Virus record (IMG/VR): IMGVR_UViG_2529293140_000002
Strand: one strand, 5' to 3'
DNA length: 36,706 bases
Source: a virus
Taxonomy: Duplodnaviria; Heunggongvirae; Uroviricota; Caudoviricetes
Positions 3,722 through 28,402 of the stretch are shown here, piece after piece (the first letter of the stretch is position 1; each line of letters begins with the position of its first letter). The notes beneath the pieces were generated by a model. That model was given only the letters and a program-made list of their open reading frames with translations. It ran no database searches and had not been told where the DNA came from. Both the position numbers and the translations under genes were made by a program.

Positions 3722-3948
3722 TGGCTGATGCAATGGATCTCGTACAGCAGCGCGTTGAAGAAGAACGCCAACGCCATATCCGTGCTGCCCGTGCCAAAAC
3801 GCCGGGCGTGTCCCGCGTGCTTTGCATTGAGTGTGAAGCGCCAATTCCGCCAGCACGCCGCCGTGCCATTCCGGGTGTGCAGCTTTGCATTACCTGTCAG
3901 GAAATCGCAGAGCTGAAAGGCAAACATTACAACGGAGGTGCTGTATGA
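3721..3948 (+). CDS. TraR/DksA-family C4 zinc-finger protein
   Basis: 75-aa ORF with CxxC...CxxC spacing (CIECEAPIPPARRRAIPGVQLCITCQ) typical of phage and plasmid TraR/DksA-like zinc fingers. Confidence 0.7.
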   Translation: MADAMDLVQQRVEEERQRHIRAARAKTPGVSRVLCIECEAPIPPARRRAIPGVQLCITCQEIAELKGKHYNGGAV

Positions 3949-4802: not shown

Positions 4803-7213
4803 GTCATGCCGATATGAACAACTGCTGCGGCTTTAACGAAGCTGCCGCATCGTTCTCATGGAACAGCTCGAAAAAGGCCATTAACCCTTATCTGGACCCG
4901 GTGGAAGTTGCGCCGGTTTCTACGCTTTCAAACCTGATCACTCTGTACGCTGCCGATAACGAGCAGGAACAGCTGCGCCGTGAGGCGCTGAGTGATCAGG
5001 TCTGGGAGCGTTATTTCTTTAATGAATCCCGTGATCCTGTCCAGCGCGAAATGGAACAGGATAAGCTCATTAGTCGGGCAAAGCTGGCGCATGAGCAGCA
5101 GCGTTTTAATCCGGATATGGTCATTCTGGCGGACGTCAACGCCCAGCCTTCCCATATCAGCAAGCCGCTGATGCAACGTATTGAATACTTCAGCAGCCTG
5201 GGCAGGCCAAAGGCTTATTCCCGCTATTTACGTGAGACGATTAAGCCATGTCTGGAACGACTGGAGCATGTACGCGACAGTCAGCTATCTGCATCTTTTC
5301 GCTTTATGGCAAGCCATGAAGGGCTGGACGGCCTGCTGATCCTGCCTGAAATGAGTCAGGATCAGGTGAAACGCCTGTCCACCCTGGTAGCTGCGCATAT
5401 GAGTATGTGCCTTGATGCCGCTTGTGGCGATTTGTATGCCACCGATGACGTTAAGCCAGAAGAAATCCGCAATACATGGGAAAGGGTGGCAGCGGAAACC
5501 CTGCGTCTGGATGTCATCCCGCCTGCGTTTGAGCAACTCCGTCGGAAAAGAAACCGCCGTAAACCCGTGCCCTATGAACTCATTCCGGGTTCGCTGGCGC
5601 GTATGTTGTGCGCCGACTGGTGGTATCGGAAATTATGGAAGATGCGTTGCGAATGGCGGGAAGAGCAGTTGCGTGCTGTCTGCCTTGTCAGCAAAAAAGC
5701 ATCTCCCTATGTCAGCTATGAAGCCGTGTTGCATAAACGTGAGCAGCGCCGTAAGTCGCTGGAGTTTTTCCGTTCTCATGAACTGGTGAACGAAGACGGC
5801 GACACGCTAGACATGGAGGATGTGGTAAACGCCAGCAGCAGCAACCCTGCGCATCGCCGCAATGAGATGATGGCCTGTGTTAAAGGTCTGGAGCTTATCG
5901 CGGAAATGCGCGGTGACTGCGCCGTTTTCTACACCATCACCTGTCCGTCACGTTTCCATTCCACGCTAAATAACGGCAGGCCCAACCCGACCTGGACAAA
6001 TGCGACGGTAAGACAAAGCAGCGATTATCTGGTCGGTATGTTTGCTGCATTTCGTAAGGCGATGCACAAAGCCGGGTTGCGCTGGTATGGCGTGCGGGTG
6101 GCTGAGCCGCATCACGACGGCACAGTTCACTGGCACCTGTTGTGTTTCATGCGCAAAAAAGACCGCCGCGCCATTACAGCATTGTTGCGTAAGTTTGCTA
6201 TCCGTGAAGACCGCGAGGAGCTGGGCAATAACACGGGGCCGCGCTTTAAGTCTGAGCTGATTAACCCGCGCAAAGGAACGCCGACAAGCTACATAGCGAA
6301 ATACATCAGTAAGAACATTGACGGGCGTGGTCTGACTGGCGAGATCAGCAAGGAAACGGGTAAATCTCTGCGTGATAACGCTGAATACGTGAATGCCTGG
6401 GCGTCTTTGCATCGTGTTCAGCAATTCCGCTTCTTTGGCATTCCGGGGCGTCAGGCTTACCGTGAACTGCGATTGCTGGCTGGTCAGGCGGCAAGGCAAA
6501 AGGGGGACAAAAAAGCAGGTGCGCCGGTACTGGATAACCCGCGCCTTGATGCCATCCTGGCTGCTGCTGATGCTGGTTGTTTTGCCACCTACATCATGAA
6601 GCAGGGCGGCGTACTGGTTCCCCGTAAATATCACCTCATCAGAACCGCTTATGAAATCAACGAAGAGCCGACCGCCTATGGCGATCACGGCATTCGTATT
6701 TATGGCATCTGGTCACCCATTGCAGAGGGCAAGATCTGCACTCATGCAGTGAAGTGGAAAATGGTTCGTAAAGCCGTTGACGTTCAGGAGGCGGCAGCCG
6801 ACCAGGGCGCTTGCGCCCCTTGGACTCGTGGCAATAACTGTCCCCTTGCTGAAAATTTGAACCAACAGGAGAAAGATAAATCAGCTGATGGGGACACCAG
6901 AACGGACATTACCCGCATGGATGACAAGGAGTTGCACGATTACCTGCACAGTATGAGCAAAAAAGAGCGCCGGGAACTGGCTGCAAGGTTACGCCTGGTG
7001 AAACCGAAACGGCGTAAAGACTACAAACAGCGAATTACAGACCATCAGCGACTGCAGCTCGTCTATGAGCTGAAGTCCAGAGGATTTGATGGTAACGAGA
7101 AAGAGGTCGATTTACTCCTTCGCGGCGGCAGTATTCCGTCAGGAGCAGGCCTGCGTATCTTCTATCGGAACCAGCGTTTGCAGGAAGATGATAAGTGGCG
7201 GAACCTGTATTAA
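4799..7213 (+). CDS. A: Replication initiation protein A (P2 gpA-like rolling-circle endonuclease)
   Basis: 804-aa ORF; conserved blocks recognisable from P2 gpA ([45 protein letters not shown]...AYRELR). Confidence 0.9.
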
Positions 7214-8243: not shown

Positions 8244-10364
8244 ATGAGTACATATCATAATGATCAGCCAATACTAGGTGGTCAAAATGACCCCGATTTA
8301 TTAAACAGGCTCGATTTTGCAAATCACTTGGCAAATATTCTACTATTAAATCACAATGATGATTGCCTTACTGTATCTATAGAGGCAGAGTGGGGATATG
8401 GTAAAACGTCAGTGATAAATCTTATAAAAGGTGCTTTGAATGAAAAGGAGTTCTTACCAATAATAATAGAATATAATCCATGGCTGGCCGGTCAACCTGA
8501 ATCCTTGATTCAGGATTTTTTATTACAGTTCTCTTCACAACTAAATATTAAAGACAATTCAAAAGCTGCTTTGGAAGCTTCAAAAGAATTAATTGCATAC
8601 TCCAATCTCTTCAGTGTAGCAAAACTTATTCCAGGGACAGAACCTTGGGCATCTATCATAGAAAAAGTCCTCTCTAATTTTGGGAGTGCTACTAAAAAGA
8701 TTGCTGAATTAAAAAAACTGGATCTTTTAGGTAGAAAAAAACAAGTAGAGAAGGCAATAAAAAAAATAAAAAATCCTATTGTGGTAATAATTGATGATAT
8801 TGATCGATTGACTCCTGCAGAAACTTTTCAAGTTTTACGATTGGTTAAAGCAGTTGCAGATTTCTCAGGAACTTCTTTTTTACTTGCATTTGATCCTAAT
8901 TATTTGATTTCTGTGCTTGATAAAAATAATATCGTCAATTCTTCGGAGTATCTTAATAAAATTGTTCAACTTCGAGTCCCACTTCCTGTAATCTCAGAAA
9001 GGGGTATGAATGAACTTGCAAATGCAGAACTGGAAAAGATAGCTAATAAATCTTTAACTGACAGATTCGAAAGTGATCAAGAAAGACTAAGCTGGATTTA
9101 TCATAATTATTTTAAAAAACTAATTAAGAATCCGAGAGAGTTAAAAAGATTTTTTAACCATTTGAGATTCGTTTTAGAGCAAATTGAAGGGCAGGTATGT
9201 TTTTCTGATCTCTTTGCTTTATCTCTGGTCGCCACTAAATCGAGTTTGGTATACGAGCATATTAAAAGCACACCAGAGGCATATATAGGGAAGAGATTCA
9301 CTAATGATGGCCTTTTGATGGATAAACCTCAAGATATTGTGGATAGATTTAGTGATGAGCGAAATAAGAAACTGAGTAATTTTTCTGATCAAGAGCGTTC
9401 AGTGATGCAGGAACTCTTAGGAGATATTTTCCCACTTCTACAGTCAAGCGGGTATTCTCATTATGGGGTTTCTGATCCCGATACAGCAGGAAGGGTTTCT
9501 GCACCACAAAGGCTTCATATTGCGTTTCATTATAAAACTCCAGCAGGGTATATTTCTGATCATGATATTATCAGTTTCATTAATGGAGATGTCAAAAGAA
9601 ACGAATTTCTAAGAGATGTGCTCTCGCAAAATGCAGAAGAAAGATTTTTTGAAATGATGAATAATTATTCGAGTTATTGTAAGGATAATAGTTTTGAAAT
9701 ATTAACGTGTATTTATGATACTTTTCTGTTTTCTCAAGAATTGAAATCCTCATTGGAAAGAAACTATGGTTTTTTGACAAAAGATCTTTATAGAAGGATG
9801 AATTGGCTCACTAATAAGGTAATATCTGAAAGTGATGATAAATATGGGTTAATAAAGGGGGTTGTAGGTAGGCATGAGAATGCGCCACTTGGTGCAGACG
9901 TATTATGCCAAGCTCGTAAACAGATTCAAAATGGATGGAATGACAAAATATGGGTTAGTATTGAAGAATTGGCTGAACTTGAAGGTATCTTTCAACAGGT
10001 GGCTATTAAAGTTTTAAGTGATAAAATATATTTTGATTATCATCTTGAATCTCATATATTTTTCGAATTAAAGAGAGTTTCATCTCAATTTACATCAGAG
10101 TTTATTGCTTCTGTATTATCAAGTGATGGCCTGATTAGGATGTGTGAGATTATTGGTGAAACAGGTAGTGATTCAACAAATGGCCCTTATTTTAAGTTTG
10201 ATGAAATTTACTTCGGGGAAATACTTGATGTGAATGAACTTCGAAATAAAGCGAAAAATTTAGATTTTTCAATTTATCCCACACGCATTCAAGCTGTACT
10301 TAAGAGTATTCTGGATGGACAAAAATATTATTTGAGAGATGCAACTGTTGGTGAAGATTGGTAA
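8244..10364 (+). CDS. KAP-family P-loop NTPase
   Basis: About 706 aa from the ATG at 8244 (the track ORF starts at a TTG at 8238); Walker A WGYGKTS at 8391-8411 and Walker B hhhhDDIDR (IVVIIDDIDRL) at about 8781-8807, the characteristic KAP NTPase signatures; strongly AT-rich compared with the phage backbone. Confidence 0.8.
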   Translation: MSTYHNDQPILGGQNDPDLLNRLDFANHLANILLLNHNDDCLTVSIEAEWGYGKTSVINLIKGALNEKEFLPIIIEYNPWLAGQPESLIQDFLLQFSSQLNIKDNSKAALEASKELIAYSNLFSVAKLIPGTEPWASIIEKVLSNFGSATKKIAELKKLDLLGRKKQVEKAIKKIKNPIVVIIDDIDRLTPAETFQVLRLVKAVADFSGTSFLLAFDPNYLISVLDKNNIVNSSEYLNKIVQLRVPLPVISERGMNELANAELEKIANKSLTDRFESDQERLSWIYHNYFKKLIKNPRELKRFFNHLRFVLEQIEGQVCFSDLFALSLVATKSSLVYEHIKSTPEAYIGKRFTNDGLLMDKPQDIVDRFSDERNKKLSNFSDQERSVMQELLGDIFPLLQSSGYSHYGVSDPDTAGRVSAPQRLHIAFHYKTPAGYISDHDIISFINGDVKRNEFLRDVLSQNAEERFFEMMNNYSSYCKDNSFEILTCIYDTFLFSQELKSSLERNYGFLTKDLYRRMNWLTNKVISESDDKYGLIKGVVGRHENAPLGADVLCQARKQIQNGWNDKIWVSIEELAELEGIFQQVAIKVLSDKIYFDYHLESHIFFELKRVSSQFTSEFIASVLSSDGLIRMCEIIGETGSDSTNGPYFKFDEIYFGEILDVNELRNKAKNLDFSIYPTRIQAVLKSILDGQKYYLRDATVGEDW

Positions 10365-10956
10365 TACTTTTATAGGCATGCTTAGAGATGATGGAGTATC
10401 TTTTTCTCCCTTTTTGAGGAAGTGATTTCCAACTGGGCATGGATGCCACATCAAATGGACAGTTGTTGTCACCTGTCAGTTAGCTGCTATTTGTTTATAG
10501 CAGCTGAAAGCCCACTACATAGTTACACCAGAAGGAGTAACAATGTAGTGGATAGCTAAATTTGACCACCTTAACAGATATGTTAATTTCCCCCCTCGCT
10601 CACAGCGGACTTTCATCTTTGTAAACCCTTATAATTCGCTTTTCAGCGGTCATTCAGATACGGATTTACGCTTTCCTTGGCAGTGCATGACTATGACGCA
10701 TGAGATCGCATGATCGTTTGAGGATCGTTTTTGCTGAGGCCAGCCAGAACTGGCGTGCTTTTGCTTATGTCATGCAGGTGCATGAAAACCACTACATAAA
10801 GTGGGCAGGCGTGGCGGGGATACGAGCGCGCGCTAACTCTTGGCTTTGTTTCATAATCAAAAATGTGATCATTGAGATTATTCTTAATTTTATGTTTGTC
10901 TATGAAATATCATTTCGCTTAACATTGTTTGAGTTAGGACTACATGAGAATAAAGA

Positions 10957-11532
10957 ATGCTTTTACCCGTAAGTGTTACATCGTGTGGCTTGTATCACCC
11001 CTACTGGCATTTGGGAGAGCGCAACCCTCATAGCGATGAACTATCAAGGCAGATGATGGATTTTAAGGATGAAAATAATCGTAATCATCAAAGGGCTATT
11101 AACCGTTTTTCTCGATTAGCTATAGATAAGGTTGGGCGGTTAGTAATCAGAGGTGGCGGTGGGCGTTTTGTTGAGTCTCCTTTTTCGATAGCAGTCGTCC
11201 CATCTCACACTGAAGGCAGAATTTCACCGGCTTTGATTGAGGTCGCCGAGCGAATCGTAAATGTTCACCGTCGGGGCATTGTTGATTGCTGTTTGGAAAG
11301 AACACGCACTGTTCCTAGCGCACATCGTGAAGGAGGAGATCGCTCAATTACTGGTCACATGTCTAGTATCAGAGTTAGGGGTGGTAACCTCATGGGGCGA
11401 AATGTGTTACTACTAGATGATGTTAAAACAACAGGCGGTAGTTTGTCTGCGTGTTTTTATTTACTGGAGTCTGCAGGAGCTGGAGTTATAATGCCATTAG
11501 CTCTGCTAGAAACTGCAAACTATGAGGAGTAG
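10957..11532 (+). CDS. Phosphoribosyltransferase-domain protein (ComF-like PRTase); candidate toxin or effector
   Basis: 191-aa ORF; type I PRTase PRPP-binding signature VLLLDDVKTTGGSL at 11404-11442 plus upstream ComF-like blocks (SIAVVPSH, LERTRTVPSAHRE); N-terminus uncertain because a possibly frameshifted ORF 10700-10972 lies upstream. Confidence 0.7.
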   Translation: MLLPVSVTSCGLYHPYWHLGERNPHSDELSRQMMDFKDENNRNHQRAINRFSRLAIDKVGRLVIRGGGGRFVESPFSIAVVPSHTEGRISPALIEVAERIVNVHRRGIVDCCLERTRTVPSAHREGGDRSITGHMSSIRVRGGNLMGRNVLLLDDVKTTGGSLSACFYLLESAGAGVIMPLALLETANYEE

Positions 11533-12496
11533 CAAAGTGCACTCAGAAGAATTAAAAAATACACTTGGATTAGCTATTCAAATCGGGAAGCTAGCATCTG
11601 ATCAAAGTGTATTGAAATTCTTTGAGCTTATTGATTTTGATGTTATTCGTGATATACGCGACTTAACTGAGATGGTTAATAGCCACGGGTTTCTAAAAGA
11701 TAAAATATCTGAGACTGATTTTCTAATAGCGAATGCTGAATTGGAGAACCACCATGTTAATGGTGTGGAGCTAATACCATATGGGTCTGAATTCTATCCT
11801 CTTAGTTTAGCGTTTACTCCTAATCCACCATCAATTCTCTACATAAAAGGGGATAAAAGTATACTAAAAGAATTGCCGGGTGTCGCAATTGTAGGATCCC
11901 GTGATACTTCCCCTGCAGGGGAAGAAATAACGAGGCGAATCACTAATCAGATAGTGTCTGCTGGGTATATTGTTGTAAGTGGGTTAGCAATAGGCACTGA
12001 TGCGAATGCTCATAAGGCAACGTTACAAGCAAAAGGAAAAACCATTGCTGTCTTGGCGCATGGTCTTGAGGAGGCTAAGCCGAAGCAAAACAGTCGACTT
12101 GCTCAAGAGATTCTGGATAAAGGTGGTGCATGGATTTCTGAGTATCCTATGGGGCGACCGGCCCAGAAACAATCATTTGTACAAAGAAATCGGATACAAG
12201 TTGGATTATCTGCAGGTTCAATTTTAATCGAGGCTGCGTTAAATAGCGGAACGATAACTCAAGCTGAGTTTGCAAATAAGGCTAAAAGACCAGTGTTTGC
12301 GGTTGTACCTCACCTACCTAATAATCCGCTTAATCTTAATTGTGAGGGAACAGTTGATTTAGTTAAGAGCAACATGGCTAGAGCGTTAAAAACAAAACGG
12401 GATTATGATGATGTGATTATGATCATAAATGAGTCTCGGGAGTATTTGTTAGAGCTAAAATGGCCAGGGAAACAGAGTACATTAGACTTGATTTAA
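11522..12496 (+). CDS. DprA/Smf-like Rossmann-fold protein; candidate antitoxin or partner of the PRTase
   Basis: 324-aa ORF overlapping the PRTase stop (alternative GTG at 11537 after GAGGAG); DprA signature VAIVGSR...VVSGLAIGTDANAHKA...IAVLAHGL...SEYP...RNRI...LIEAALNSG...RPVFAV. Confidence 0.75.
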   Translation: MRSSKVHSEELKNTLGLAIQIGKLASDQSVLKFFELIDFDVIRDIRDLTEMVNSHGFLKDKISETDFLIANAELENHHVNGVELIPYGSEFYPLSLAFTPNPPSILYIKGDKSILKELPGVAIVGSRDTSPAGEEITRRITNQIVSAGYIVVSGLAIGTDANAHKATLQAKGKTIAVLAHGLEEAKPKQNSRLAQEILDKGGAWISEYPMGRPAQKQSFVQRNRIQVGLSAGSILIEAALNSGTITQAEFANKAKRPVFAVVPHLPNNPLNLNCEGTVDLVKSNMARALKTKRDYDDVIMIINESREYLLELKWPGKQSTLDLI

Positions 12497-13546: not shown

Positions 13547-15312
13547 CAAAAAATCTCCACAATATTGCTGGTATTGGCGGATTCGCCCTGCAGCGGTTCG
13601 TTAAACAGTGCGTGCATCGTTGCCCAGGCCAGATCGGCGTGGCTGGCTTCTTCGCTGCGGCTGGCTTCATAGGTCGGGCGGTTGCCGCTGGCGGTGGTGG
13701 CGCGACGGATTGCCATGAATGACTGCGCAATGTCGGTGTGCCCGGCGTCAAACTCCAGACGGCGGTGGCTGATAATGTCGTAGGCCTTGAGTACCAGGGC
13801 GTTTTTAACATTGGGGTTGTAGACAAACTCCCGGACGGCAGGAAAGAACGCTTTCACGTTCTCATAAACCCCGTGACCAACGCCGGTTGAGTCGATACCG
13901 ATATAGGTCACGTTGTACTGTTCGGTGAGTTTTTTGATGGCGTCAGCCTGGGCGCGGAAGTCCATCCCGCGCCACTGGTGACGCTCAAGAATGCGGAACT
14001 TACCACCCGGCACGGCTGGCGGAGCCACCACCACGCATCCGGCACTGTCGCCGTTCTGCGTACCTTTTGCCGGGTCATAACCGATCCACACTTCGCGCCA
14101 GCCAAACGGGCGCAGGGCCAGTGCATGAAAGTCGGTCCAGACTTCCCAGCTGTCCACCATGCACGCCTGCAGTTCGCTGAGCGGGAACACGGACGCGAGA
14201 TCGTCCACGAACTCGCACATCAGCAGGTTCTGGTATTCGTCCGGGCTGTACTCCATGCGTAGCTGGTCGAGGTCGAACAGGTTACAGCCGCCGCGCACCG
14301 CATCTTCCACGGTGACTATCTGGCGGTATTGCCCGTCTGCGCACAGCAGGCCGGGGGCCAAATTGCTGTGGGACAGGTCGATGTCCACCTTGTCAGCTTT
14401 GTTGCGTCCACGGTTGAACAGCGCACCGGACCAGAACGGATAAGCACTGTGGGTCAGGCTGGATGGCGTGGAAAAATAGGTTTGTCGCCATTTTTTGTGA
14501 ATAGCCATCCCGGAAGCCACTTTGCGCAGCTCCTGGAATTTCGGTATCCAGAAATATTCATCCAGATACAGGTTGCCGTGATAACTCTGGGCCGTGCGGG
14601 CATTGGTGCCGAGGAAGTAAAGCGTGGCTCCGTTAGGAAGCACCATCGGATCGCCTTTTAGCTCCACCTCGACTTCTTTGGCGAAGTCGATGATGTATTG
14701 TTTAAAGACGTGGGCCTGAGCCTTACTGGCAGAAAGGAAAATCTGGTTACGTCCGGTAAGCAGGGCGTCAATCAGGGCTTCACGGGCAAAATAGAAGGTC
14801 GCGCCGATCTGGCGTGACTTCAGCAGGTTGCGGATGCGGTTGGTTTTTCCGGCTTCCCACCAGTGGCGCTGGTAGTTGAACATGGAGGAATGGAAGATTT
14901 CTTCCAGCTTCTCAATCTGCTCATCGGTGAAAACATTCTTTTCCGGCTGACGGCGTGGGCCTTTATTGCGGTTGGCGACGTTAGGGTTTAAGTCGGCTTC
15001 GTTGCCGCCATTGTTAAACTTGCCGATCCGCGCGTGGCGCTCAGACTGGCGCGCCAGCAGGTCAATCTCTTTGAAATCTTTCCCTTCTTTGTGCTCCTTC
15101 ATAATGAGCTGGCAGTAGCGTGCGGCGGTGGTGAGCTGCATCTGATCCAGCGGCCCATAGTCACCCCACTTGTCGCGTTTTTTCCAGCTGTGAACGGTTG
15201 CAACTTTCTCGCCCAGCATTTCAGCAATGCGGGCTACGCGGTATCCCTGAAAGTACAGCAGCATGGCCTGCCGACGGGGATCGAGATCTGCGGGTGTCAG
15301 TGTGGTGTTCAT
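13546..15312 (-). CDS. P: Terminase large subunit, ATPase (P2 gpP-like)
   Basis: 588-aa ORF, start ATG at 15312-15310 (MNTTLTPADL); divergent from the scaffold gene O as in P2. Confidence 0.9.
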   Translation of the reverse strand: MNTTLTPADLDPRRQAMLLYFQGYRVARIAEMLGEKVATVHSWKKRDKWGDYGPLDQMQLTTAARYCQLIMKEHKEGKDFKEIDLLARQSERHARIGKFNNGGNEADLNPNVANRNKGPRRQPEKNVFTDEQIEKLEEIFHSSMFNYQRHWWEAGKTNRIRNLLKSRQIGATFYFAREALIDALLTGRNQIFLSASKAQAHVFKQYIIDFAKEVEVELKGDPMVLPNGATLYFLGTNARTAQSYHGNLYLDEYFWIPKFQELRKVASGMAIHKKWRQTYFSTPSSLTHSAYPFWSGALFNRGRNKADKVDIDLSHSNLAPGLLCADGQYRQIVTVEDAVRGGCNLFDLDQLRMEYSPDEYQNLLMCEFVDDLASVFPLSELQACMVDSWEVWTDFHALALRPFGWREVWIGYDPAKGTQNGDSAGCVVVAPPAVPGGKFRILERHQWRGMDFRAQADAIKKLTEQYNVTYIGIDSTGVGHGVYENVKAFFPAVREFVYNPNVKNALVLKAYDIISHRRLEFDAGHTDIAQSFMAIRRATTASGNRPTYEASRSEEASHADLAWATMHALFNEPLQGESANTSNIVEIF

Positions 15313-21908: not shown

Positions 21909-22264
21909 CGCTTTATAGCGGGATGAACAATACCAGCGGTAAAGCTATTACTGATATTGACCATCTGCGCCAGTCGGTGCGGGACATTCTGCTGACACCG
22001 CAGGGTAGCCGCATTGCCCGCCGGGAATATGGTTCCCTGCTGTCGGCTTTAATAGATCAGCCACAAAATCCGGTGTTACGCCTGCAGGTCATGTCGGCTG
22101 TGTATGTGGCACTGAGTCGCTGGGAGCCACGGCTGACGCTGGATTCCATCACCATCAACAGCAATTTTGACGGTTCAATGGTGGTGGAGCTGACCGGGCG
22201 GCGGAATAACGGTGTGCCTGTGTCCCTTTCCGTATCAACAGGAGCAGAGAATGGCAGTGATTGA
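21905..22264 (+). CDS. W: Baseplate wedge protein W (P2 gpW-like)
   Basis: 119-aa ORF, ATGA overlap with V; size matches P2 W. Confidence 0.85.
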   Translation: MTLYSGMNNTSGKAITDIDHLRQSVRDILLTPQGSRIARREYGSLLSALIDQPQNPVLRLQVMSAVYVALSRWEPRLTLDSITINSNFDGSMVVELTGRRNNGVPVSLSVSTGAENGSD

Positions 22265-23159
22265 CCTTTCGCAGTTGCCTGCGCCGCAGATTGTGGATGT
22301 GCCGGACTTTGAGACGCTGCTTGCCGAACGCAAGGCAGAATTTGTGGCGCTTCATCCGAAAGATGAGCAGGAGGCTGTGATCCGCACGCTGGAACTGGAA
22401 TCTGAACCCGTCACCAAATTGCTGCAGGAGAACGCTTACCGTGAGTTGCTTCTGCGCCAGCGCATTAACGAAGCCGCGCAGGCGGTGATGGTGGCTTACG
22501 CGATGGGCGGCGATCTGGACCAGCTCGCTGCCAACTACAACGTGAAACGCCTGACGGTGACGCCTGCTGATGATGACGCTGTGCCGCCCGTTGCAGCTGT
22601 GATGGAAAGCGATGAAGCGTTACGCCTGCGTGTGCCTGCAGCCTTTGAGGGGCTTTCAGTTGCGGGGCCAACTGCAGCTTATGAATTTCATGCCCGAAGC
22701 GCCGACGGTCGGGTGGCGGATGCCAGTGCAACCAGTCCGGCACCTGCAGAGGTGGTGCTGACAGTCCTTAGCCGCGAAGGCGACGGAACAGCAGAAAAAG
22801 ACCTGCTGGATGTGGTGGAAAAAGCCCTGAACAGTGAGAACGTCCGCCCGGTGGCTGACCGTCTGACGGTTCGCAGTGCAGAAATCATCCCGTACCGTGT
22901 GGAAGCCACCATTTTTCTCTATCCGGGACCGGAAGCGGAGCCGGTAATGGCAGCGGCAAAAGCCAGCCTGCAGAAGTACATCGCCAGTCAGACGCGGCTT
23001 GGTCGGGATATTCGCCGTAGTGCCATTTTTGCCGCGCTGCATGTTGAGGGGGTTCAACGTGTGGAGCTGGCTTCACCGCTGGCGGATGTGGTCCTGAACA
23101 AAACACAGGCCGCATCATGTACGCAGTGGAGCGTAACCAACGGAGGAACGGATGAATAG
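22251..23159 (+). CDS. J: Baseplate protein J (P2 gpJ-like)
   Basis: ORF 22212-23159; ATG at 22251 preceded by GGAG gives 302 aa, the length of P2 J. Confidence 0.85.
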   Translation: MAVIDLSQLPAPQIVDVPDFETLLAERKAEFVALHPKDEQEAVIRTLELESEPVTKLLQENAYRELLLRQRINEAAQAVMVAYAMGGDLDQLAANYNVKRLTVTPADDDAVPPVAAVMESDEALRLRVPAAFEGLSVAGPTAAYEFHARSADGRVADASATSPAPAEVVLTVLSREGDGTAEKDLLDVVEKALNSENVRPVADRLTVRSAEIIPYRVEATIFLYPGPEAEPVMAAAKASLQKYIASQTRLGRDIRRSAIFAALHVEGVQRVELASPLADVVLNKTQAASCTQWSVTNGGTDE

Positions 23160-23757
23160 TCTGCTGCCACCGGGTTCAACTTCACTGGAGCGCCGACTGG
23201 CGCAAACCTGCAGCGGGATTTCTGATCTGCAGGTGCCGCTTCGTGACTTGTGGAATCCGGCAACCTGTCCGGTCAGTTTCCTGCCTTATCTCGCCTGGGC
23301 GTTCTCTGTGGATCGCTGGGACGAGGGCTGGACAGAAAGCGTCAAACGCCAGGTAGTGAAGGATGCTTTTTATATTCATCAGCATAAAGGAACCACCAGT
23401 GCCGTGCGGCGGGTGGTGGAACCGTTCGGATTCCTGATCCGCATTATTGAGTGGTGGCAGACCGGAGAGGCTCCGGGCACGTTTCGCCTGGATATCGGCG
23501 TGCAGGACCAGGGCATCACTGAAGATACCTATCTGGAACTTGAGCGACTGATAAGCGATGCCAAACCATGTAGCCGCCACATGATCGGCATGTCCATCAA
23601 TCTGCAGACCAGCGGCCCGCATTGGGTGGGAGCCGCCAGCTATCTTGGCGAAGAAATCACGATCTATCCGTATATCAACGAAACAATTATTTCTGGCGGC
23701 ACCGCGCATGAAGGCGGGGCGGTCCATGTTATTGACACAATGAGAGTGAATCCATGA
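23152..23757 (+). CDS. I: Baseplate/tail protein I (P2 gpI-like)
   Basis: 201-aa ORF with GGAGGA upstream; overlaps the J stop and the H start. Confidence 0.85.
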   Translation: MNSLLPPGSTSLERRLAQTCSGISDLQVPLRDLWNPATCPVSFLPYLAWAFSVDRWDEGWTESVKRQVVKDAFYIHQHKGTTSAVRRVVEPFGFLIRIIEWWQTGEAPGTFRLDIGVQDQGITEDTYLELERLISDAKPCSRHMIGMSINLQTSGPHWVGAASYLGEEITIYPYINETIISGGTAHEGGAVHVIDTMRVNP

Positions 23758-25427
23758 GCACAAAATTTTATACCCTGCTGACGGATATTGGCGCGGCGAA
23801 ACTTGCCAGCGCCGCCGCGCTCGGTGTGCCGCTAAAAATTACCCATATGGCGGTGGGCGATGGTGGCGGAACATTGCCGACGCCGGACGCAAAGCAGAGT
23901 GCACTGGTAAATGAGAAACGTCGGGCTGCGCTGAATATGCTCTATATCGACCCACAGAACAGCAGCCAGATTATTGCTGAACAGGTGATCCCTGAAAACG
24001 AGGGCGGTTGGTGGATACGTGAAGTGGGCCTGTTTGATGAGTCCGGGGCATTGATTGCCGTGGGAAACTGCCCGGAAAGCTATAAGCCGCAACTGGCTGA
24101 AGGTAGCGGGCGCACTCAGACCGTGCGCATGGTGCTGATTACCAGCAGCACGGACAATATCACCCTGAAAATCGACCCTGCTGTAGTGCTGGCAACCCGC
24201 AAGTATGTGGATGACAAGGCACTGGAGCTGAAGGTGTACGCGGATGATCAGATGGCAAAACATCTTGCCGCACCGGACCCGCATTCACAGTATGCACCCA
24301 AAGAAAGTCCGACGTTTACCGGGACACCCAAAGCGCCAACGCCAGCAGCAGGGAATAACACCACGCAGATTGCGACCACCGCGTTTGTTCAGGCGGCTCT
24401 GACGGCCCTTATTAATGGTGCGCCAGCCACGCTGGACACGCTGAAAGAAATAGCCGCAGCCATTAACAATGATCCGAATTTCAGTACCACCATTAACAAT
24501 GTGCTGGCACTAAAAGCACCGTTGTCGAGTCCGGCACTCACCGGAACGCCAACAGCCCCCACGGCGGAGCAGTCGGTCAACAATACACAGATTGCCACTA
24601 CGGCTTTTGTGAAATCGGCGATTGCAGGAATGGTGGGTTCTGCACCCGCGGCACTGGATACACTGAACGAACTGGCGGCGGCACTGGGGAATGATCCGAA
24701 CTTTGCCACGACAATGCTTAATGCGCTGGCAGGTAAACAACCGCTGGACAATACGCTGACTAATTTGAGTGGAAAGGATGTTGCTGGTCTTCTCGCATAC
24801 CTTGGTTTGGTGGATGATTCCGGTGTAGTAGGCCGCTTGCTTAATACTCAAGTGATTACCTCATCTGGTACTTACACCCCAACACCGGGTACCCGGAAAA
24901 TTAAGGTAATTCTTACCGGGGGAGGTGGCGGTGGTAGTTCTGTCATCGCCACATCATTTTCTCAGACGGCGTTTGGAGGTGGAGGTGGCTCTGCCGCAAC
25001 CTGCATCGGTATTTTTGACCTTGAAGATATCAGTGATTTTTCTGTCGTTATCGGAGCAGGTGGAACAGCTGGTAATCCAGGTGGGACATCAACATTTAAT
25101 GGAATGTCAGCCGGTTGCGGTGGTGGTGGATCCGGCGTAAACACTCCGGCAACTGGTACTGGTGGTACAGCTGGAACAGCTACTGGCGGGCTAATCAATA
25201 TCCATGGTGGCCATGGTAGTGACGGTCAGGTGGGAAGTTATTACTCATTTGGTAATGGTGCGGCTTCGTTCTGGGGGGGAGGTGGTCGTTCTGGTGCTGC
25301 TAATGGTATTGCAGCCAAAGCATATGGTGCTGGCGGAGGTGCTGCTTATGACACCGCTTTTTCAGGAGTGCTAAAAGCCGGTGGAACAGGAGCGCCTGGG
25401 ATCTGCGTGATTGAGGAGTTTGCATAA
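23754..25427 (+). CDS. H: Tail fibre protein H with glycine-rich C-terminal domain
   Basis: 557-aa ORF; N-terminus typical of P2 H (MSTKFYTLLTDIGAAK...); internal tandem repeat (NTTQIATTAFV...LDTLKEIAAAINNDPNF, twice); C-terminal third is glycine-rich. Confidence 0.85.
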   Translation: MSTKFYTLLTDIGAAKLASAAALGVPLKITHMAVGDGGGTLPTPDAKQSALVNEKRRAALNMLYIDPQNSSQIIAEQVIPENEGGWWIREVGLFDESGALIAVGNCPESYKPQLAEGSGRTQTVRMVLITSSTDNITLKIDPAVVLATRKYVDDKALELKVYADDQMAKHLAAPDPHSQYAPKESPTFTGTPKAPTPAAGNNTTQIATTAFVQAALTALINGAPATLDTLKEIAAAINNDPNFSTTINNVLALKAPLSSPALTGTPTAPTAEQSVNNTQIATTAFVKSAIAGMVGSAPAALDTLNELAAALGNDPNFATTMLNALAGKQPLDNTLTNLSGKDVAGLLAYLGLVDDSGVVGRLLNTQVITSSGTYTPTPGTRKIKVILTGGGGGGSSVIATSFSQTAFGGGGGSAATCIGIFDLEDISDFSVVIGAGGTAGNPGGTSTFNGMSAGCGGGGSGVNTPATGTGGTAGTATGGLINIHGGHGSDGQVGSYYSFGNGAASFWGGGGRSGAANGIAAKAYGAGGGAAYDTAFSGVLKAGGTGAPGICVIEEFA

Positions 25428-25840
25428 TGAATTACGCATTAATTAAAAATAATGTCGTCGTAAATACGGTTGTCTGTAATTCAGATAACGATGCAAAAAA
25501 ATTATTTCCGGATTACACCGTCATTAATATTACTGGCATTGCCGCAGGAATAAACTGGACATATGACGGTACTAATTTCACGGCGCCAGTTATTGAAAAA
25601 TCAGTTGCCGAATTAGCCGCGGAAAATATGGCAATATCAAACTCTGAGTATGCTCGCGCAACAACTCAAATCGATTTGTTGAACGATCAGATCCAGGATG
25701 CTGACTACACTGACACAACTGAGAACGCAGTGAAGTCGGCACTTACAGAGTGGACTGAGTACCGTAAATCATTACGTGCATATATCAGGGCTGGTGACTG
25801 GACACAGTCACTGCCTATTCAGCCAGATTCGGTCAGTTAA
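25427..25840 (+). CDS. G: Tail fibre assembly chaperone (P2 gpG-like)
   Basis: 137-aa ORF immediately after H with TAATG overlap; AT-rich relative to the phage backbone; position of the tail fibre assembly gene. Confidence 0.65.
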   Translation: MNYALIKNNVVVNTVVCNSDNDAKKLFPDYTVINITGIAAGINWTYDGTNFTAPVIEKSVAELAAENMAISNSEYARATTQIDLLNDQIQDADYTDTTENAVKSALTEWTEYRKSLRAYIRAGDWTQSLPIQPDSVS

Positions 25841-25860
25841 CGTTTAGCAAGATGTCGGAA

Positions 25861-25895
25861 GCCGCAGCACGTCGGATGCAAGGACGTGCTGCGGC
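25861..25895. terminator. Perfect 13-bp stem hairpin (GCCGCAGCACGTC / GACGTGCTGCGGC), possible terminator or structured site
   Basis: Stem 25861-25873 and 25883-25895 with 9-nt loop, 20 bp after the G stop; no clear U-tract on either strand, so intrinsic-terminator function is uncertain. Confidence 0.3.
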
Positions 25896-25996
25896 TGGCT
25901 GGCGAACTTTCGATAGTGCGAGTATTGAACGTTTAAGAAAATGAAGAGATAACGGCTAACTGGCATCATTTCCGGTTTCTATTCAGGGGGATGATC

Positions 25997-26563
25997 ATGC
26001 TTATTGGATATGTACGCGTGTCAACAAATGACCAGAACACCGATTTGCAACGTAGTGCGCTGAACTGCGCGGGATGTGAGCGGATTTTTGAGGACAAAAT
26101 CAGTGGTACTAAGTCCGACAGACCGGGGCTTAAAAAACTGCTCAGGACACTATCGGCAGGTGACACACTGGTTGTCTGGAAGCTGGACAGGTTGGGGCGC
26201 AGTATGCGGCATCTTGTTACGCTGATAGAAGAGTTGCGCCAGCGCGGCGTGAATTTCCGAAGTCTGACTGACAGTATTGATACCAGTACCCCAATGGGCA
26301 GTTTCTTTTTTCATGTCATGGGTGCCCTGGCTGAAATGGAACGCGAACTGATAGTTGAACGTACCAGGGCAGGGCTGGCTGCAGCTCGTGCTAAAGGCAG
26401 AGTAGGTGGACGCCGTCCTAAGTTGACTACCGAACAGTGGGCACAGATTGGGCGTTTACTCGAGGCCGGAGAATCAAGACAGCGTATTGCACTGATTTTT
26501 GATGTAGGCGTTTCTACCATTTATAGAAAATTTCCGGCAAATAAGAGCAATGAATCTCCCTGA
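25997..26563 (+). CDS. Serine recombinase, DNA invertase of the Hin/Gin/Pin/Cin family
   Basis: ATG at 25997 after GGGGGA; N-terminus MLIGYVRVSTNDQNTDLQ with catalytic serine context, resolvase domain and C-terminal HTH (GVSTIYRKF); about 188 aa. Confidence 0.85.
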   Translation: MLIGYVRVSTNDQNTDLQRSALNCAGCERIFEDKISGTKSDRPGLKKLLRTLSAGDTLVVWKLDRLGRSMRHLVTLIEELRQRGVNFRSLTDSIDTSTPMGSFFFHVMGALAEMERELIVERTRAGLAAARAKGRVGGRRPKLTTEQWAQIGRLLEAGESRQRIALIFDVGVSTIYRKFPANKSNESP

Positions 26564-26611
26564 ATCAGCTTTATTTTGATTATCCCTGAAAGCAGACAAA
26601 TACCGTCATTT

Positions 26612-26629
26612 TGTGTGAATAACGGTACA
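26612..26629. promoter_or_regulatory. Ogr-type late-activator site TGT-N12-ACA (tail sheath operon late promoter)
   Basis: TGTGTGAATAACGGTACA about 80 bp upstream of the sheath start; shares TGTGTG...CGGTACA with the site at 15359-15376. Confidence 0.55.
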
Positions 26630-26705
26630 ACTGCGCTTAGCTGTTTGTCAGGCACAATCACTTCAATATAGGGCGAAGCCTAATCCAATCAGGAGGTTCG
26701 CCACT

Positions 26706-27044
26706 ATGGCTCAGGATTACCACCACGGAGTGCGCGTTGTTGAAGTCAACGAAGGCACCCGATCCATTACCACGGTGAGCACCGCCATCGTGGGTATGGT
26801 CTGCACGGGCGATGATGCCGATGCAAAAATGTTTCCTCTTAATAAACCCGTGCTGATCACTGATGTGCTGACTGCCAGCGGTAAAGCGGGCGAGTCCGGT
26901 ACGCTGGCCCGTTCGCTGGATGCCATCGCTGACCAGGCAAAACCCGTGACCGTTGTTGTGCGTGTGCCGCAGGGTGAAACGGAAGAAGAAACCACGACCA
27001 ATATCATCGGCGCAGTGACTGCTGAAGGTAAAAAACAGGCATGA
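26706..27044 (+). CDS. FI: Tail sheath protein FI, N-terminal fragment (gene interrupted by frameshift)
   Basis: 112-aa ORF starting [19 protein letters not shown], the conserved sheath N-terminus; terminates at TGA 27042-27044 just after an A6 run (27030-27035). Confidence 0.75.
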
Positions 27045-27877
27045 AAACCCTGTTATCTGCCCAGTCACAGCTCGGCGTTAAACCGCGCATTCTCGGCGTG
27101 CCAGGTCACGATAACAAAGCCGTTGCTACTGAGTTGCTGAGCGTGGCGCAAAGCCTGCGTGGGTTTGCTTACCTGTCAGCGTATGGCTGCAAGACGATAC
27201 AGGAGGCGATCACTTACCGCGAAAACTTCAGCCAGCGCGAAGGGATGCTGATCTGGCCTGACTTTACTGGCTGGGACACGGTGCTGAATGCCGAAGCAAC
27301 GGCATATGCCACCGCCCGTGCGCTTGGTCTGCGCGCCAAAATTGATGAGCAGACTGGATGGCACAAAAGCCTGTCCAACGTGGGCGTGAACGGTGTCACC
27401 GGAATTTCTGCTGATGTGTTCTGGGATCTGCAGGACCCGGCAACCGATGCAGGTCTGCTGAACCAGAACGACGTCACCACGCTTGTGCGTAAAGACGGTT
27501 TCCGCTTCTGGGGTTCCCGCTGCCTGAGTGATGACCCGCTCTTTGCCTTCGAAAACTACACCCGCACGGCGCAGGTGCTGATGGACACGATGGCAGAAGC
27601 ACACATGTGGGCGGTGGATAAACCGCTTAACCCGTCGCTGGCCCGCGACATTATCGAAGGTATCCGCGCCAAAATGCGCAGCCTGGTCAGTCAGGGCTAT
27701 CTCATTGGTGGTGATTGCTGGCTGGATGAGTCGGTGAACGACAAAGACACGCTGAAAGCCGGAAAACTCACCATCGACTATGACTACACGCCAGTGCCGC
27801 CACTTGAAAATCTGATGCTGCGCCAGCGCATCACCGATCAGTACCTGGTGAATTTCGCCAGCCAGGTCAGCGCGTAA
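27041..27877 (+). CDS. FI: Tail sheath protein FI, C-terminal fragment (continues in -1 frame)
   Basis: 278-aa ORF in the -1 frame relative to the N-terminal fragment; contains conserved sheath blocks ([47 protein letters not shown]); the two fragments total about 390 aa, the size of an intact P2-type sheath. Confidence 0.75.
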
Positions 27878-27886
27878 GGGGACAAC

Positions 27887-28402
27887 ATGGCTTTACCACG
27901 CAAATTAAAACATCTGAACCTGTTTAACGACGGGAACAACTGGCAGGGGATCGTTGAGTCGCTGACGCTGCCGAAATTCACCCGCAAATATGAGAAGTAT
28001 CGCGGCGGCGGAATGCCGGGTGCAGTGGATGTGGATCTGGGACTGGATGACAGTGCACTGGATACAGAATTTTCCATTGGTGGTACTGAACTGCTGCTGT
28101 TTAAGCAGATGGGCAAATCCACGGTGGATGGCATCCAGCTGCGCTTTACCGGCTCTATTCAGCGTGACGATACCGGGGAAGTGCAGGCCGTGGAGCTTGT
28201 CGTGCGTGGACGTCACAAAGAAGTGGATTCCGGCGAGTGGAAGACGGGCGAAAGCAACACCACCAAAGTGACCAGTACCAACAGCTACGCGAAGCTGACC
28301 ATCAATGGTGAGGTGCTCTATGAAGTGGACCTTATCAACATGGTGGAAATTGTGGACGGTGTGGACCTGATGGAAGTGCACCGCAACGCCCTCGGCCTCT
28401 GA
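27887..28402 (+). CDS. FII: Tail tube protein FII (P2 gpFII-like)
   Basis: 171-aa ORF immediately after the sheath gene with AAGGGGA upstream; size matches P2 FII. Confidence 0.85.
   Translation: MALPRKLKHLNLFNDGNNWQGIVESLTLPKFTRKYEKYRGGGMPGAVDVDLGLDDSALDTEFSIGGTELLLFKQMGKSTVDGIQLRFTGSIQRDDTGEVQAVELVVRGRHKEVDSGEWKTGESNTTKVTSTNSYAKLTINGEVLYEVDLINMVEIVDGVDLMEVHRNALGL

What the first reader, a model, noticed from the sequence alone, without database searches (positions are those of the whole stretch)
25841..26563. Hin/Gin-family invertase downstream of the tail fibre genes, without an obvious invertible alternative cassette
A complete serine invertase gene (25997-26563) follows H and G on the same strand. 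In Mu, P1 and e14-type systems the invertase flanks a segment carrying two alternative tail-fibre C-termini and assembly genes in opposite orientation. Here only 156 bp separate the G stop from the invertase start, with no minus-strand alternative fibre genes, and I could not identify convincing gix/hix-like 26-bp inverted crossover sites by eye. The invertase may be an orphan remnant of a host-range switch, or may act on sites I could not see, for example inside H.
Basis: partly seen in the sequence, partly recalled or inferred. Interest (0 to 1): 0.45.

Follow-up and report, generated by a model that had tools for sequence, protein, structure and literature searches.

The report
Intact invertase beside a locked tail-fibre switch
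A P2-like E. coli prophage keeps an intact Gin/Pin-type DNA invertase, but the flippable tail-fibre segment it should act on has been replaced by a one-way fibre cassette, so the enzyme has lost its local target; this is an ordinary kind of decay.

Summary
An intact 188-aa serine invertase (25997-26563) follows H and G on the same strand, 156 bp after the G stop, and no minus-strand fibre genes are present.

- A 26-bp site lies inside H at 24790-24815 (TTCTCGCATACC TT GGTTTGGTGGAT).
- A remnant lies upstream of the invertase at 25916-25941 (GTGCGAGTATTG AA CGTTTAAGAAAA).
- Both outer half-sites and both core dinucleotides are normal.
- The two inner half-sites are perfect inverted repeats in relatives. 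Here one is degraded and the other is replaced, and they match at only 3 of 12 positions.

Homology to relatives stops at the crossover cores on both sides. Between the cores lies a lower-GC foreign cassette: a glycine-rich fibre tip, a 137-aa chaperone-like gene and a hairpin element. The same cassette is joined at the same site in e14/Mu-like and other P2-like prophages and never has an inverted partner.

The switch is therefore most likely locked and the invertase orphaned in cis. The enzyme is 100% identical to one from an intact switch. Action in trans remains possible. This is an ordinary new member of a known kind.

The parts
23754..24801 (+). Constant part of tail-fibre gene H (Hc), shared at 96-97% identity with relatives that carry a full switch
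   Evidence: homology to relatives runs up to position 24801, the base before the crossover core
24790..24815 (+). Left 26-bp crossover site inside H: TTCTCGCATACC TT GGTTTGGTGGAT. The core TT is at 24802-24803. The outer half is normal (PWM 17.5). The inner half is degraded (PWM 2.5, against at least 12.8 in natural sites)
   Evidence: it is the top-scoring 26-mer of the whole window
24804..25427 (+). Variable, glycine-rich C-terminal part of H (Hv, Gly_rich_2 domain), part of the foreign one-way cassette
   Evidence: GC falls from about 55% to 38-50% across the cassette
25427..25840 (+). G-like gene, 137 aa, probably a tail-fibre assembly chaperone; the protein (WP_001104934.1) is identical in the other contexts of the cassette
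25852..25929 (+). Hairpin element of about 72-78 nt (14-bp perfect stem, 25860-25873 pairing with 25883-25896). It travels with the cassette and is also found downstream of tfa in lambdoid phages and downstream of pinE in e14-like prophages
   Evidence: (I23)
25916..25941 (+). Right crossover-site remnant: GTGCGAGTATTG AA CGTTTAAGAAAA. The core AA is at 25928-25929. The outer half is kept (PWM 14.3). The inner half is replaced by the end of the hairpin element (PWM -30.3)
25942..25996 (+). Conserved leader of the invertase gene, one mismatch from relative L050, with GGGGGA before the ATG
25997..26563 (+). Intact Gin/Pin/Cin/Hin-family serine DNA invertase, 188 aa
26018..26101 (+). Stretch where the Fis-dependent recombinational enhancer is expected (inferred). 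There are G-N13-C 15-mers at 26018 and 26067, 49 bp apart, the first centred 96 bp from the core. Synonymous diversity among 72 distinct homologues is lowest here
   Evidence: enhancer position in Hin and Gin from PMC3798978. Suggestive only

Best explanation
The window is a complete-looking P2/186-like prophage of E. coli. Its relatives carry a Mu/P1/e14-type host-range switch. In that switch the invertase gene sits next to a 1.1-4.1 kb (mostly 1.5-2 kb) segment bounded by two inverted 26-bp crossover sites. One site lies inside H at the joint between the constant and variable parts. The other lies about 55 bp upstream of the invertase start. The segment holds two opposed Hv-G sets.

In this prophage everything between the two crossover cores has been replaced by a one-way cassette: a glycine-rich Hv, a 137-aa G-like gene and a hairpin element. 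The outer half-sites and the 2-bp cores survive on both sides. The inner halves no longer match each other. An invertase dimer should therefore not bind the right remnant properly, and the two sites cannot synapse as an inverted pair. The fibre gene is fixed in one state and the invertase, though intact, has no substrate in cis.

Because the right joint falls exactly in the AA core where serine invertases cut, the locking event was probably catalysed by an invertase acting on a secondary (quasi) site. That step is inferred.

Shown: the anatomy, the sites, the breakpoints and the intactness of the gene. Inferred: loss of inversion, and the mechanism of origin.
For: 1. Relatives define the sites. 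In 56 of 66 loci with at least 2.6 kb upstream, the right site (TTCTCCCAAACC AA CGTTTA[A/T]GAAAA) has an inverted partner inside H (TTCTC[G/A]CATACC TT GGTTTGGGAGAA). The core plus inner half shows 0-2 mismatches over 14 nt.

2. Site quality in the window.
- The outer halves score 17.5 and 14.3, close to the natural medians of 17.5 and 15.3.
- The inner halves score 2.5 and -30.3. Natural inner halves have minima of 12.8 and 14.3 and a median of 20.4.
- The two inner halves are complementary at only 3 of 12 positions.
- No other good 26-mer exists in the 36.7 kb; the next best scores 10.8 against 20.0.

3. Rarity of the defect. Of 106 distinct sequence contexts that carry the conserved outer half plus leader, 102 have a consensus-like inner half. 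The window type is one of four exceptions.

4. Breakpoints.
- Flank homology to relatives (96-97.7%) runs to 24801 on the left and starts at 25928 on the right.
- The hairpin element continues ...GTATTGAA|TGATTTCC in PD7, L096 and HK97.
- The window switches after that AA to the CGTTTAAGAAAATGAAGAG... of L050-type relatives.

5. The cassette elsewhere. It occurs at 97-98% identity joined to a different fibre gene (StfP type) and to another P2-like H, always at the core of a left site and never with an inverted partner.

6. Consequence of flipping. A hypothetical inversion would truncate H to 377 aa with a junk tail.

7. Orientation. All the other records fetched with this arrangement have the same orientation as the window: five RefSeq genomes and two IMG/VR contigs (L013/L093 and L095). 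Among relatives the same segment is seen inverted in 5 locus pairs and in the same orientation in 7.

8. The invertase is intact. It is 100% identical in protein to L014's, and L014 has a full switch. It is 73% identical to Gin, with Ser9 present.
Against: No experiment or read-level data were available, so loss of inversion is a prediction from sequence. Hin-family enzymes tolerate some half-site degeneracy, and the left site keeps 9 of 12 inner positions. An intact, unmutated gene is also what one would expect if the enzyme were still useful. The arrangement is rare and nearly clonal, so intactness may only reflect a recent event. Origin by a quasi-site rests on one well-resolved joint. The presumed quasi-site resembles a real site poorly apart from the AA core.
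Confidence: 0.75

Rival explanations
1. The invertase is orphaned in cis but functional, and it is kept because it acts in trans on crossover sites in other prophages or elements of the host. PinQ does this on the e14 P segment.
For: The gene is intact and identical in protein to one from a working-type switch. PinQ, which has no segment of its own, inverts the e14 P segment (PMC12529663). In EC958 a segment whose own invertase is truncated still flips, presumably in trans (PMC4134206). The crossover sites of e14-type and P2-type switches share the inner half TTGGTTTGGGAGAA.
Against: In host BE311 the only other place similar to this invertase gene is a 122-nt pinH-like fragment next to ypjA. 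There is therefore no second Gin/Pin-type switch with its own enzyme on that chromosome. The rest of the host genome could not be scanned for sites. Intactness is equally explained by a recent event, since the copies fetched (L001, L013/L093, L095) differ from the window by at most a few bases over 4-5 kb. This rival is compatible with the main explanation rather than exclusive of it.
Confidence: 0.15
2. The invertase still flips the 1.1-kb Hv-G segment between 24802/3 and 25928/9. It would then act as an ON/OFF switch for the tail fibre rather than a choice between two fibres.
For: Both cores (TT and AA) are in inverted orientation and both outer half-sites are normal. The expected enhancer region and the spacing of 96 bp from the core to the first candidate Fis-like site are conserved.
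Against: The inner halves match at 3 of 12 positions and the right one scores -30. Natural pairs never fall below 12.8. The flipped state gives a 377-aa H with no receptor-binding part, which is useless to an otherwise complete prophage. All known copies share one orientation.
Confidence: 0.05
3. The invertase is a decaying pseudogene or is unexpressed, and it merely has not yet picked up a disabling mutation.
For: A later stage of this decay exists. In AST46 the same cassette is followed by an inserted acyltransferase and only a C-terminal HTH fragment of the invertase. BR1220 and PSS-04 have invertase pseudogenes with internal stops. No sigma-70-like promoter was found by the simple scan.
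Against: The ORF is full length. It has no substitution relative to L014's protein, Ser9 and both domains are present, and the leader with its ribosome-binding site is conserved. The promoter scan is too crude to count as evidence of silence.
Confidence: 0.05

Closest known systems
Gin with the G segment of phage Mu, and Cin with the C segment of P1
   Same: The protein is 73% identical to Gin over 184 aa, with the same two domains and Ser9. The invertase gene lies next to the tail-fibre genes. A crossover site lies inside the fibre gene at the constant/variable joint.
   Different: There is no second, opposed Hv-G set and no intact second site. The segment between the cores is one-way and cannot give an alternative fibre.
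Pin with the P segment of the cryptic prophage e14, and the P2-like (Peduoviridae, e.g. Escherichia phage Cartapus) host-range switches
   Same: The site family is the same. The e14 repeats TTGGTTTGGGAGAAGG / CCTTCTCCCAAACCAA (PMC12529663) equal the inner halves of the relatives. The invertase, its leader and the outer half-site are 97-100% identical to those of relatives with a full switch.
   Different: In the window the inner halves are GGTTTGGTGGAT and an unrelated GTGCGAGTATTG. The G'-Hv' half of the segment is absent.
PinR and PinQ of Rac and Qin in E. coli K-12 (invertases without their own invertible segment) and the pinH fragment
   Same: These are invertase genes beside tail-fibre genes in a prophage with no local invertible segment. 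PinQ shows that such enzymes can still work in trans (PMC12529663).
   Different: PinQ is only 38% identical to PinE and sits in cryptic lambdoid prophages. Here the enzyme is a close Gin/PinE-type relative in an apparently complete P2-like prophage, and the scars of the lost switch are still readable.
Cin-mediated recombination at quasi crossover sites (Iida and Hiestand-Nauer 1986, 1987, as cited in PMC4134206)
   Same: The joint lies exactly in the central dinucleotide, between a genuine site and a sequence that shares little beyond that dinucleotide.
   Different: Those events were observed in the laboratory. Here the event is only inferred from one natural joint, and deletion or substitution rather than inversion is required.

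Membership tests
Gin/Hin/Pin/Cin DNA invertases (small serine recombinases) | N-terminal resolvase-type catalytic domain with the serine nucleophile at position 9/10 | tested here: met
   PF00239 E 7.9e-53 over residues 3-135. The alignment to Gin shows VRVSTNDQ with Ser9.
Gin/Hin/Pin/Cin DNA invertases (small serine recombinases) | C-terminal helix-turn-helix DNA-binding domain; total length about 190 aa | tested here: met
   PF02796 HTH_7 E 1.4e-15 over residues 138-181; 188 aa.
Gin/Hin/Pin/Cin DNA invertases (small serine recombinases) | Close sequence relationship to characterised invertases rather than to resolvases | tested here: met
   Gin (3UJ3, 4M6F) E 3e-91, 73% identity. Gamma-delta resolvase only E 2e-33. 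PHROG 125 'DNA invertase' E 2e-99.
Gin/Hin/Pin/Cin DNA invertases (small serine recombinases) | Fis-dependent recombinational enhancer in the 5' part of the invertase gene, about 100 bp from the nearer crossover site | tested here: inconclusive
   There are G-N13-C 15-mers at 26018 and 26067, 49 bp apart, the first centred 96 bp from the core. Synonymous diversity is lowest in codons 1-15 and 26-35 among 72 distinct homologues. No Fis binding data exist. Enhancer position is from PMC3798978.
Gin/Hin/Pin/Cin DNA invertases (small serine recombinases) | Catalyses inversion | not testable with these tools
   This needs an assay or read-level data.
Phage host-range inversion switch (G / C / P segment type) | Two 26-bp crossover sites in inverted orientation whose inner halves match | tested here: not met
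   The left site 24790-24815 has a degraded inner half (PWM 2.5). The right remnant 25916-25941 has an unrelated inner half (PWM -30.3). They are complementary at 3 of 12 positions. Natural pairs show 0-2 mismatches in 14 nt.
Phage host-range inversion switch (G / C / P segment type) | Two alternative Hv plus assembly-gene sets in opposite orientation between the sites | tested here: not met
   Only a plus-strand Hv and G are present. The minus-strand ORFs have no phage-family hits. Relatives have the opposed set.
Phage host-range inversion switch (G / C / P segment type) | Crossover site inside the fibre gene at the constant/variable joint, with the invertase gene adjacent to the other site | tested here: met
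   The core TT at 24802-24803 lies in codons for ...LLAYLGL..., where homology to relatives ends. The right core lies 68 bp before the invertase ATG, as in relatives.

The most novel reading that the evidence does not exclude
Both joints of the substituted cassette lie at the crossover sites. The right joint is resolved to the 2-bp cleavage core. The window may therefore preserve a natural product of invertase-catalysed recombination with a secondary (quasi) site. If so, DNA invertases would not only flip fibre segments but also capture, delete or lock fibre cassettes, which would explain why unrelated fibre tips are found joined at this same site in different phage families.
Probability: 0.35. 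Interest if true: 0.4.

Novelty: new member of a known kind. Interest (0 to 1): 0.2.

Why it matters
This is mainly a point for annotation and phage biology. An invertase next to fibre genes does not by itself mean the prophage can switch host range; the 26-bp sites must be checked. Here the fibre is fixed to one glycine-rich tip.

The case also gives a clean natural example of how such switches decay: an intact enzyme, surviving outer half-sites and replaced inner halves. It further suggests that the crossover site serves as a joint for swapping fibre tips between P2-like, e14/Mu-like and other tail modules.

If the joint was made by the invertase itself, it would link laboratory observations on quasi-sites to the evolution of phage host range. 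In addition, recent work on PinQ shows that invertases without a local target can matter for phage defence in trans, so the gene should not be dismissed as junk without a test.

Tried and rejected
- **Strict consensus search.** TTCTCNNAAACCNNGGTTTNNGATAA with up to 3 mismatches gave 0 hits. The consensus recalled from Hin/Gin was too far from this family's sites. The sites became visible only by comparison with relatives.
- **Generic inverted-repeat search over 22000-28000.** It found only chance pairs and the intergenic hairpin.
- **Apparent contiguity of the 195-nt intergenic stretch.** It seemed contiguous in 135 genomes. This was an artefact of joining two non-collinear pieces. In e14-like prophages the hairpin element lies downstream of pinE, not upstream.
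- **A pre-deletion intermediate.** I looked for the glycine-rich cassette inside an intact invertible segment. None was found in E. coli genomes, IMG/VR loci or species-representative genomes.
- **A near-identical parent prophage with an intact switch.** The best relatives are only 96-97.7% identical in the flanks.
- **The strongest single half-site in the window.** It is at 13859 (TTCTCATAAACC, score 18.7), inside the terminase gene. It has core CC and no second half, and about 0.2 such half-sites are expected by chance. I treated it as chance.
- **A second half-site-like stretch at the G stop (25827-25852, score 5.5).** It is not significant on its own: 49 half-sites in the window score as well.
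- **Fis-site consensus scan.** Inconclusive.
- **Promoter/terminator scan.** It found no sigma-70-like promoter and no terminator-like site in the spacer between G and the invertase (one minus-strand terminator-like site lies inside the invertase gene).
- **Rfam.** Only a sub-threshold CssrB hit, 23.8 bits against a gathering score of 76.
- **A second invertase in host BE311.** The only other match is a pinH-like fragment.

Full report
**What is there**

The window is a P2/186-like prophage of E. coli. It matches five RefSeq chromosomes (BE311, F41, K99S, EC24.26 and TUM2820) at 99.9-100% over the H-to-sheath region. In BE311 it lies between ybjL and rcdA. It has a full set of regulatory, replication, head, lysis and tail genes.

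- H is 23754-25427. It has a tail-collar fibre N-terminus and a Gly_rich_2 C-terminus.
- The G-like ORF is 25427-25840, 137 aa, with weak tail-fibre-assembly hits.
- The invertase is 25997-26563, 188 aa, 156 bp after the G stop on the same strand.
- The invertase has a resolvase domain (E 8e-53) and an HTH_7 domain. It is 73% identical to Mu Gin over 184 residues and keeps the Ser9 nucleophile.
- The small minus-strand ORFs under H, G and the spacer hit no phage protein family.

**Finding the sites**

A search with a Hin/Gin-type consensus recalled from memory found nothing, and a generic inverted-repeat search found only chance pairs. The sites became visible by comparison with relatives.

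Escherichia phage Cartapus and E. coli TUM1881 match the window over the constant part of H and again from just upstream of the invertase onward, but not in between. There they carry Hv-G on the plus strand and G'-Hv' on the minus strand.

In Cartapus the homologous blocks end at two 26-bp sequences: TTCTCGCATACC TT GGTTTGGGAGAA inside H, and TTCTCCCAAACC AA CGTTTATGAAAA upstream of the invertase. Their inner halves are perfect inverted repeats. They equal the repeats published for the e14 P segment, TTGGTTTGGGAGAAGG and CCTTCTCCCAAACCAA (PMC12529663). They also fit the 26-bp crossover-site scheme with a central dinucleotide described for E. coli prophages (PMC4134206).

I fetched 80 loci that encode close relatives of the invertase.
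- Sixty-six had at least 2.6 kb upstream. Fifty-six of these show such a pair, with 0-2 mismatches over the 14 nt of core plus inner half. The spacing is mostly 1.5-2.0 kb.
- The same segment occurs in opposite orientation in five pairs of loci and in the same orientation in seven. These switches therefore do flip in nature.

**The sites in the window**

A half-site weight matrix built from the 56 natural pairs ranks 24790-24815 as the best 26-mer of the whole window, with a score of 20.0 against 10.8 for the next.

| Site | Sequence | Core | Outer half (natural median) | Inner half (natural minimum) |
|---|---|---|---|---|
| Left, 24790-24815 | TTCTCGCATACC TT GGTTTGGTGGAT | TT, 24802-24803 | 17.5 (17.5) | 2.5 (12.8) |
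| Right remnant, 25916-25941 | GTGCGAGTATTG AA CGTTTAAGAAAA | AA, 25928-25929 | 14.3 (15.3) | -30.3 (14.3) |

The median for natural inner halves is 20.4. The two inner halves of the window are complementary at only 3 of 12 positions.

Among 106 distinct sequence contexts that carry the conserved outer half plus invertase leader, 102 keep a consensus-like inner half. The window type is one of four exceptions.

What is there is one composite site and one half-site remnant, not a functional inverted pair.

**What lies between the cores**

Homology to relatives (96-97.7% identity) runs up to 24801 on the left and resumes at 25928 on the right. It therefore reaches the crossover cores on both sides.

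The DNA between the cores has lower GC, down to 38% in G against about 55% in the flanks. It is a cassette that occurs elsewhere at 97-98% identity.
- In pig and environmental E. coli it is joined to the constant part of an e14/Mu-type StfP fibre gene (PD7, DLI.5a, IMG/VR loci L094-L098).
- PSS-04 (L011) and BR1220 (L010) carry only the glycine-rich Hv part, in a different baseplate context. In L011 it is joined at the same StfP-type outer half-site.
- In AST46 it is joined to a different P2-like H.

Wherever the left site is present (the window plus L004, L005, L011, L012, L094 and L096-L098) the joint is at the core of a left crossover site. The outer half is CTCTCGAAAACC or TTCTCGCATACC according to the recipient. 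The inner half is always GGTTTGGTGGAT (AGTTTGGTGGAT in L096 and L098). None of the ten cassette-bearing loci examined has an inverted partner.

The cassette ends with a hairpin element (-43.6 kcal/mol, z -5.15). This element is also found downstream of tfa in HK97-like phages and downstream of pinE in e14-like prophages. In PD7, L096 and HK97 the element reads ...GTGCGAGTATTGAA|TGATTTCC.... In the window it reads ...GTGCGAGTATTGAA|CGTTTAAGAAAATGAAGAG..., which from the AA onward is the sequence of L050-type relatives with one mismatch in 68 nt. The right breakpoint is therefore resolved to the AA core dinucleotide.

**How it most likely works**

The invertible segment has been replaced by a one-way fibre cassette. 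The invertase has no usable pair of sites in cis. H is fixed with its glycine-rich tip.

A hypothetical exchange at the two cores would leave H at 377 aa with a 27-aa nonsense tail and no receptor-binding part. No alternative fibre could result. All other records fetched with this arrangement have the same orientation as the window: five genomes and two IMG/VR contigs (L013/L093 and L095).

The invertase itself shows no sign of decay.
- Its protein is 100% identical to that of L014, whose switch is intact.
- Its leader is conserved.
- The 5' coding stretch where Hin and Gin carry their Fis-dependent enhancer (PMC3798978) shows the lowest synonymous diversity in the family. It holds two Fis-like 15-mers 49 bp apart, the first centred 96 bp from the core. 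This enhancer evidence is only suggestive.

Later stages of decay exist elsewhere. In AST46 the same cassette is followed by an inserted acyltransferase and a mere HTH fragment of the invertase. BR1220 and PSS-04 have invertase pseudogenes.

**Origin of the arrangement (inferred)**

Serine invertases cut at the central dinucleotide, and rejoining needs matching overhangs. A joint that falls exactly in the AA core, with unrelated sequence on the inner side, is what recombination between a genuine site and a secondary site would leave. Laboratory precedents are the Cin quasi-sites, as cited in PMC4134206.

A second locus, L009, has the same signature: a tfa stop codon, then ...CATAGG AA CGTTTAAGAAAA.

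Against this reading, the presumed quasi-site resembles a real site poorly apart from the core. These enzymes strongly prefer inversion in cis. The left joint cannot be resolved because donor and recipient share the site. Ordinary recombination within the shared site on the left, plus an illegitimate joint on the right, is not excluded.

**Action in trans**

PinQ, an invertase without its own segment, inverts the e14 P segment (PMC12529663). In EC958 a segment with a truncated invertase still flips (PMC4134206). Trans action is therefore a real possibility.

In BE311 the only other sequence similar to this gene is a 122-nt pinH-like fragment beside ypjA. No second Gin/Pin-type switch with its own enzyme is present on that chromosome. 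I could not scan the whole host genome for sites.

**Comparison and verdict**

The protein is a member of the Gin/Hin/Pin/Cin invertases by every sequence criterion tested. The locus is not a functional host-range switch, because the two defining features (matched inverted sites and opposed alternative cassettes) were tested and not met.

It works, or rather no longer works, like the decayed switches and segment-less invertases already known in E. coli prophages: pinR, pinQ, pinH, and the converse case of Phi4 in EC958. It is a new member of a known kind and of low to modest interest. The most interesting residue is the core-precise joint, which hints at invertase-mediated capture or locking of a fibre cassette.

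Noticed in passing
window 27030-27035: The window has a run of six A where BE311 (L001) and the IMG/VR copies L093 and L095 have seven. This splits the tail sheath gene into ORFs 26706-27044 and 27041-27877. It is either a real inactivating frameshift in an essential tail gene or a homopolymer sequencing error in this record.
   Followed up: partly
window 25852-25929 (hairpin 25860-25896): An unannotated element of about 72 nt with a 14-bp perfect stem (-43.6 kcal/mol, z -5.15, no T-run). It occurs in more than 5,300 of 5,426 E. coli genomes, downstream of tfa in HK97, HK106 and other lambdoid phages, and downstream of pinE in e14-like prophages. PGAP sometimes labels it a partial 'capsid protein'. 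It has no Rfam family (CssrB 23.8 bits, below the gathering score of 76). Its function is unknown; it may be an RNA-end or stabiliser element of fibre operons.
   Followed up: partly
window 25827-25852: Overlapping the G stop codon is a second, weaker look-alike of core plus outer half-site (ATTCGGTCAGTT AA CGTTTAGCAAGA, outer half score 5.5). It is present in every context of the cassette and resembles the arrangement in L009. It could be the scar of an older locking event, but it is not significant on its own.
   Followed up: partly
L056 about 3905-3930 (upstream of the invertase at 3984): The site before the invertase reads TTCTCCCAAACC AA GGTATGCGAGAA. Its outer half is the reverse complement of the outer half normally found inside H. 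This is a hybrid site that suggests another unusual exchange between left and right sites.
   Followed up: no
L117, L121, L142, L162, L163, L166: In these IMG/VR loci the whole 40-nt outer half-site plus invertase leader occurs twice in opposite orientation, 1.4-1.9 kb apart. The inverted repeat is therefore much longer than 26 bp, and the left site is not the usual H-type site.
   Followed up: no
L005 (E. coli AST46) 5233-6656: Another P2-like prophage carries the same glycine-rich Hv-G cassette at the same crossover joint. Here an acyltransferase gene is inserted on the opposite strand and only a C-terminal HTH fragment of the invertase is left. This is a later stage of decay of the same kind of switch.
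   Followed up: partly
L007 (HK97) 2371-2425: Just after the tfa stop, HK97 carries the reverse complement of a tail-fibre-assembly gene 3' end, the same sequence as the minus-strand G' end in TUM1881 (L003). This is a vestige of an opposed cassette in a lambdoid phage that has no invertase.
   Followed up: no
window about 8245-10365 and 11522-12496 (from the BE311 annotation, L102 26744-30995): Between the portal gene and the replication genes the prophage carries a KAP family P-loop NTPase and a DprA-like gene. These are likely accessory or defence cargo.
   Followed up: no
window 13859-13870: This is the best single match to the crossover half-site matrix in the window (TTCTCATAAACC, score 18.7). 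It lies inside the terminase large subunit gene, with core CC and no second half. It is most likely chance.
   Followed up: yes
L101 29238-29405 (BE311 chromosome 1219237-1219404): A pinH-like invertase fragment lies next to ypjA. It shows 77% identity to the window's invertase over 122 nt and is the only other invertase-like sequence that blastn detects on that chromosome.
   Followed up: yes
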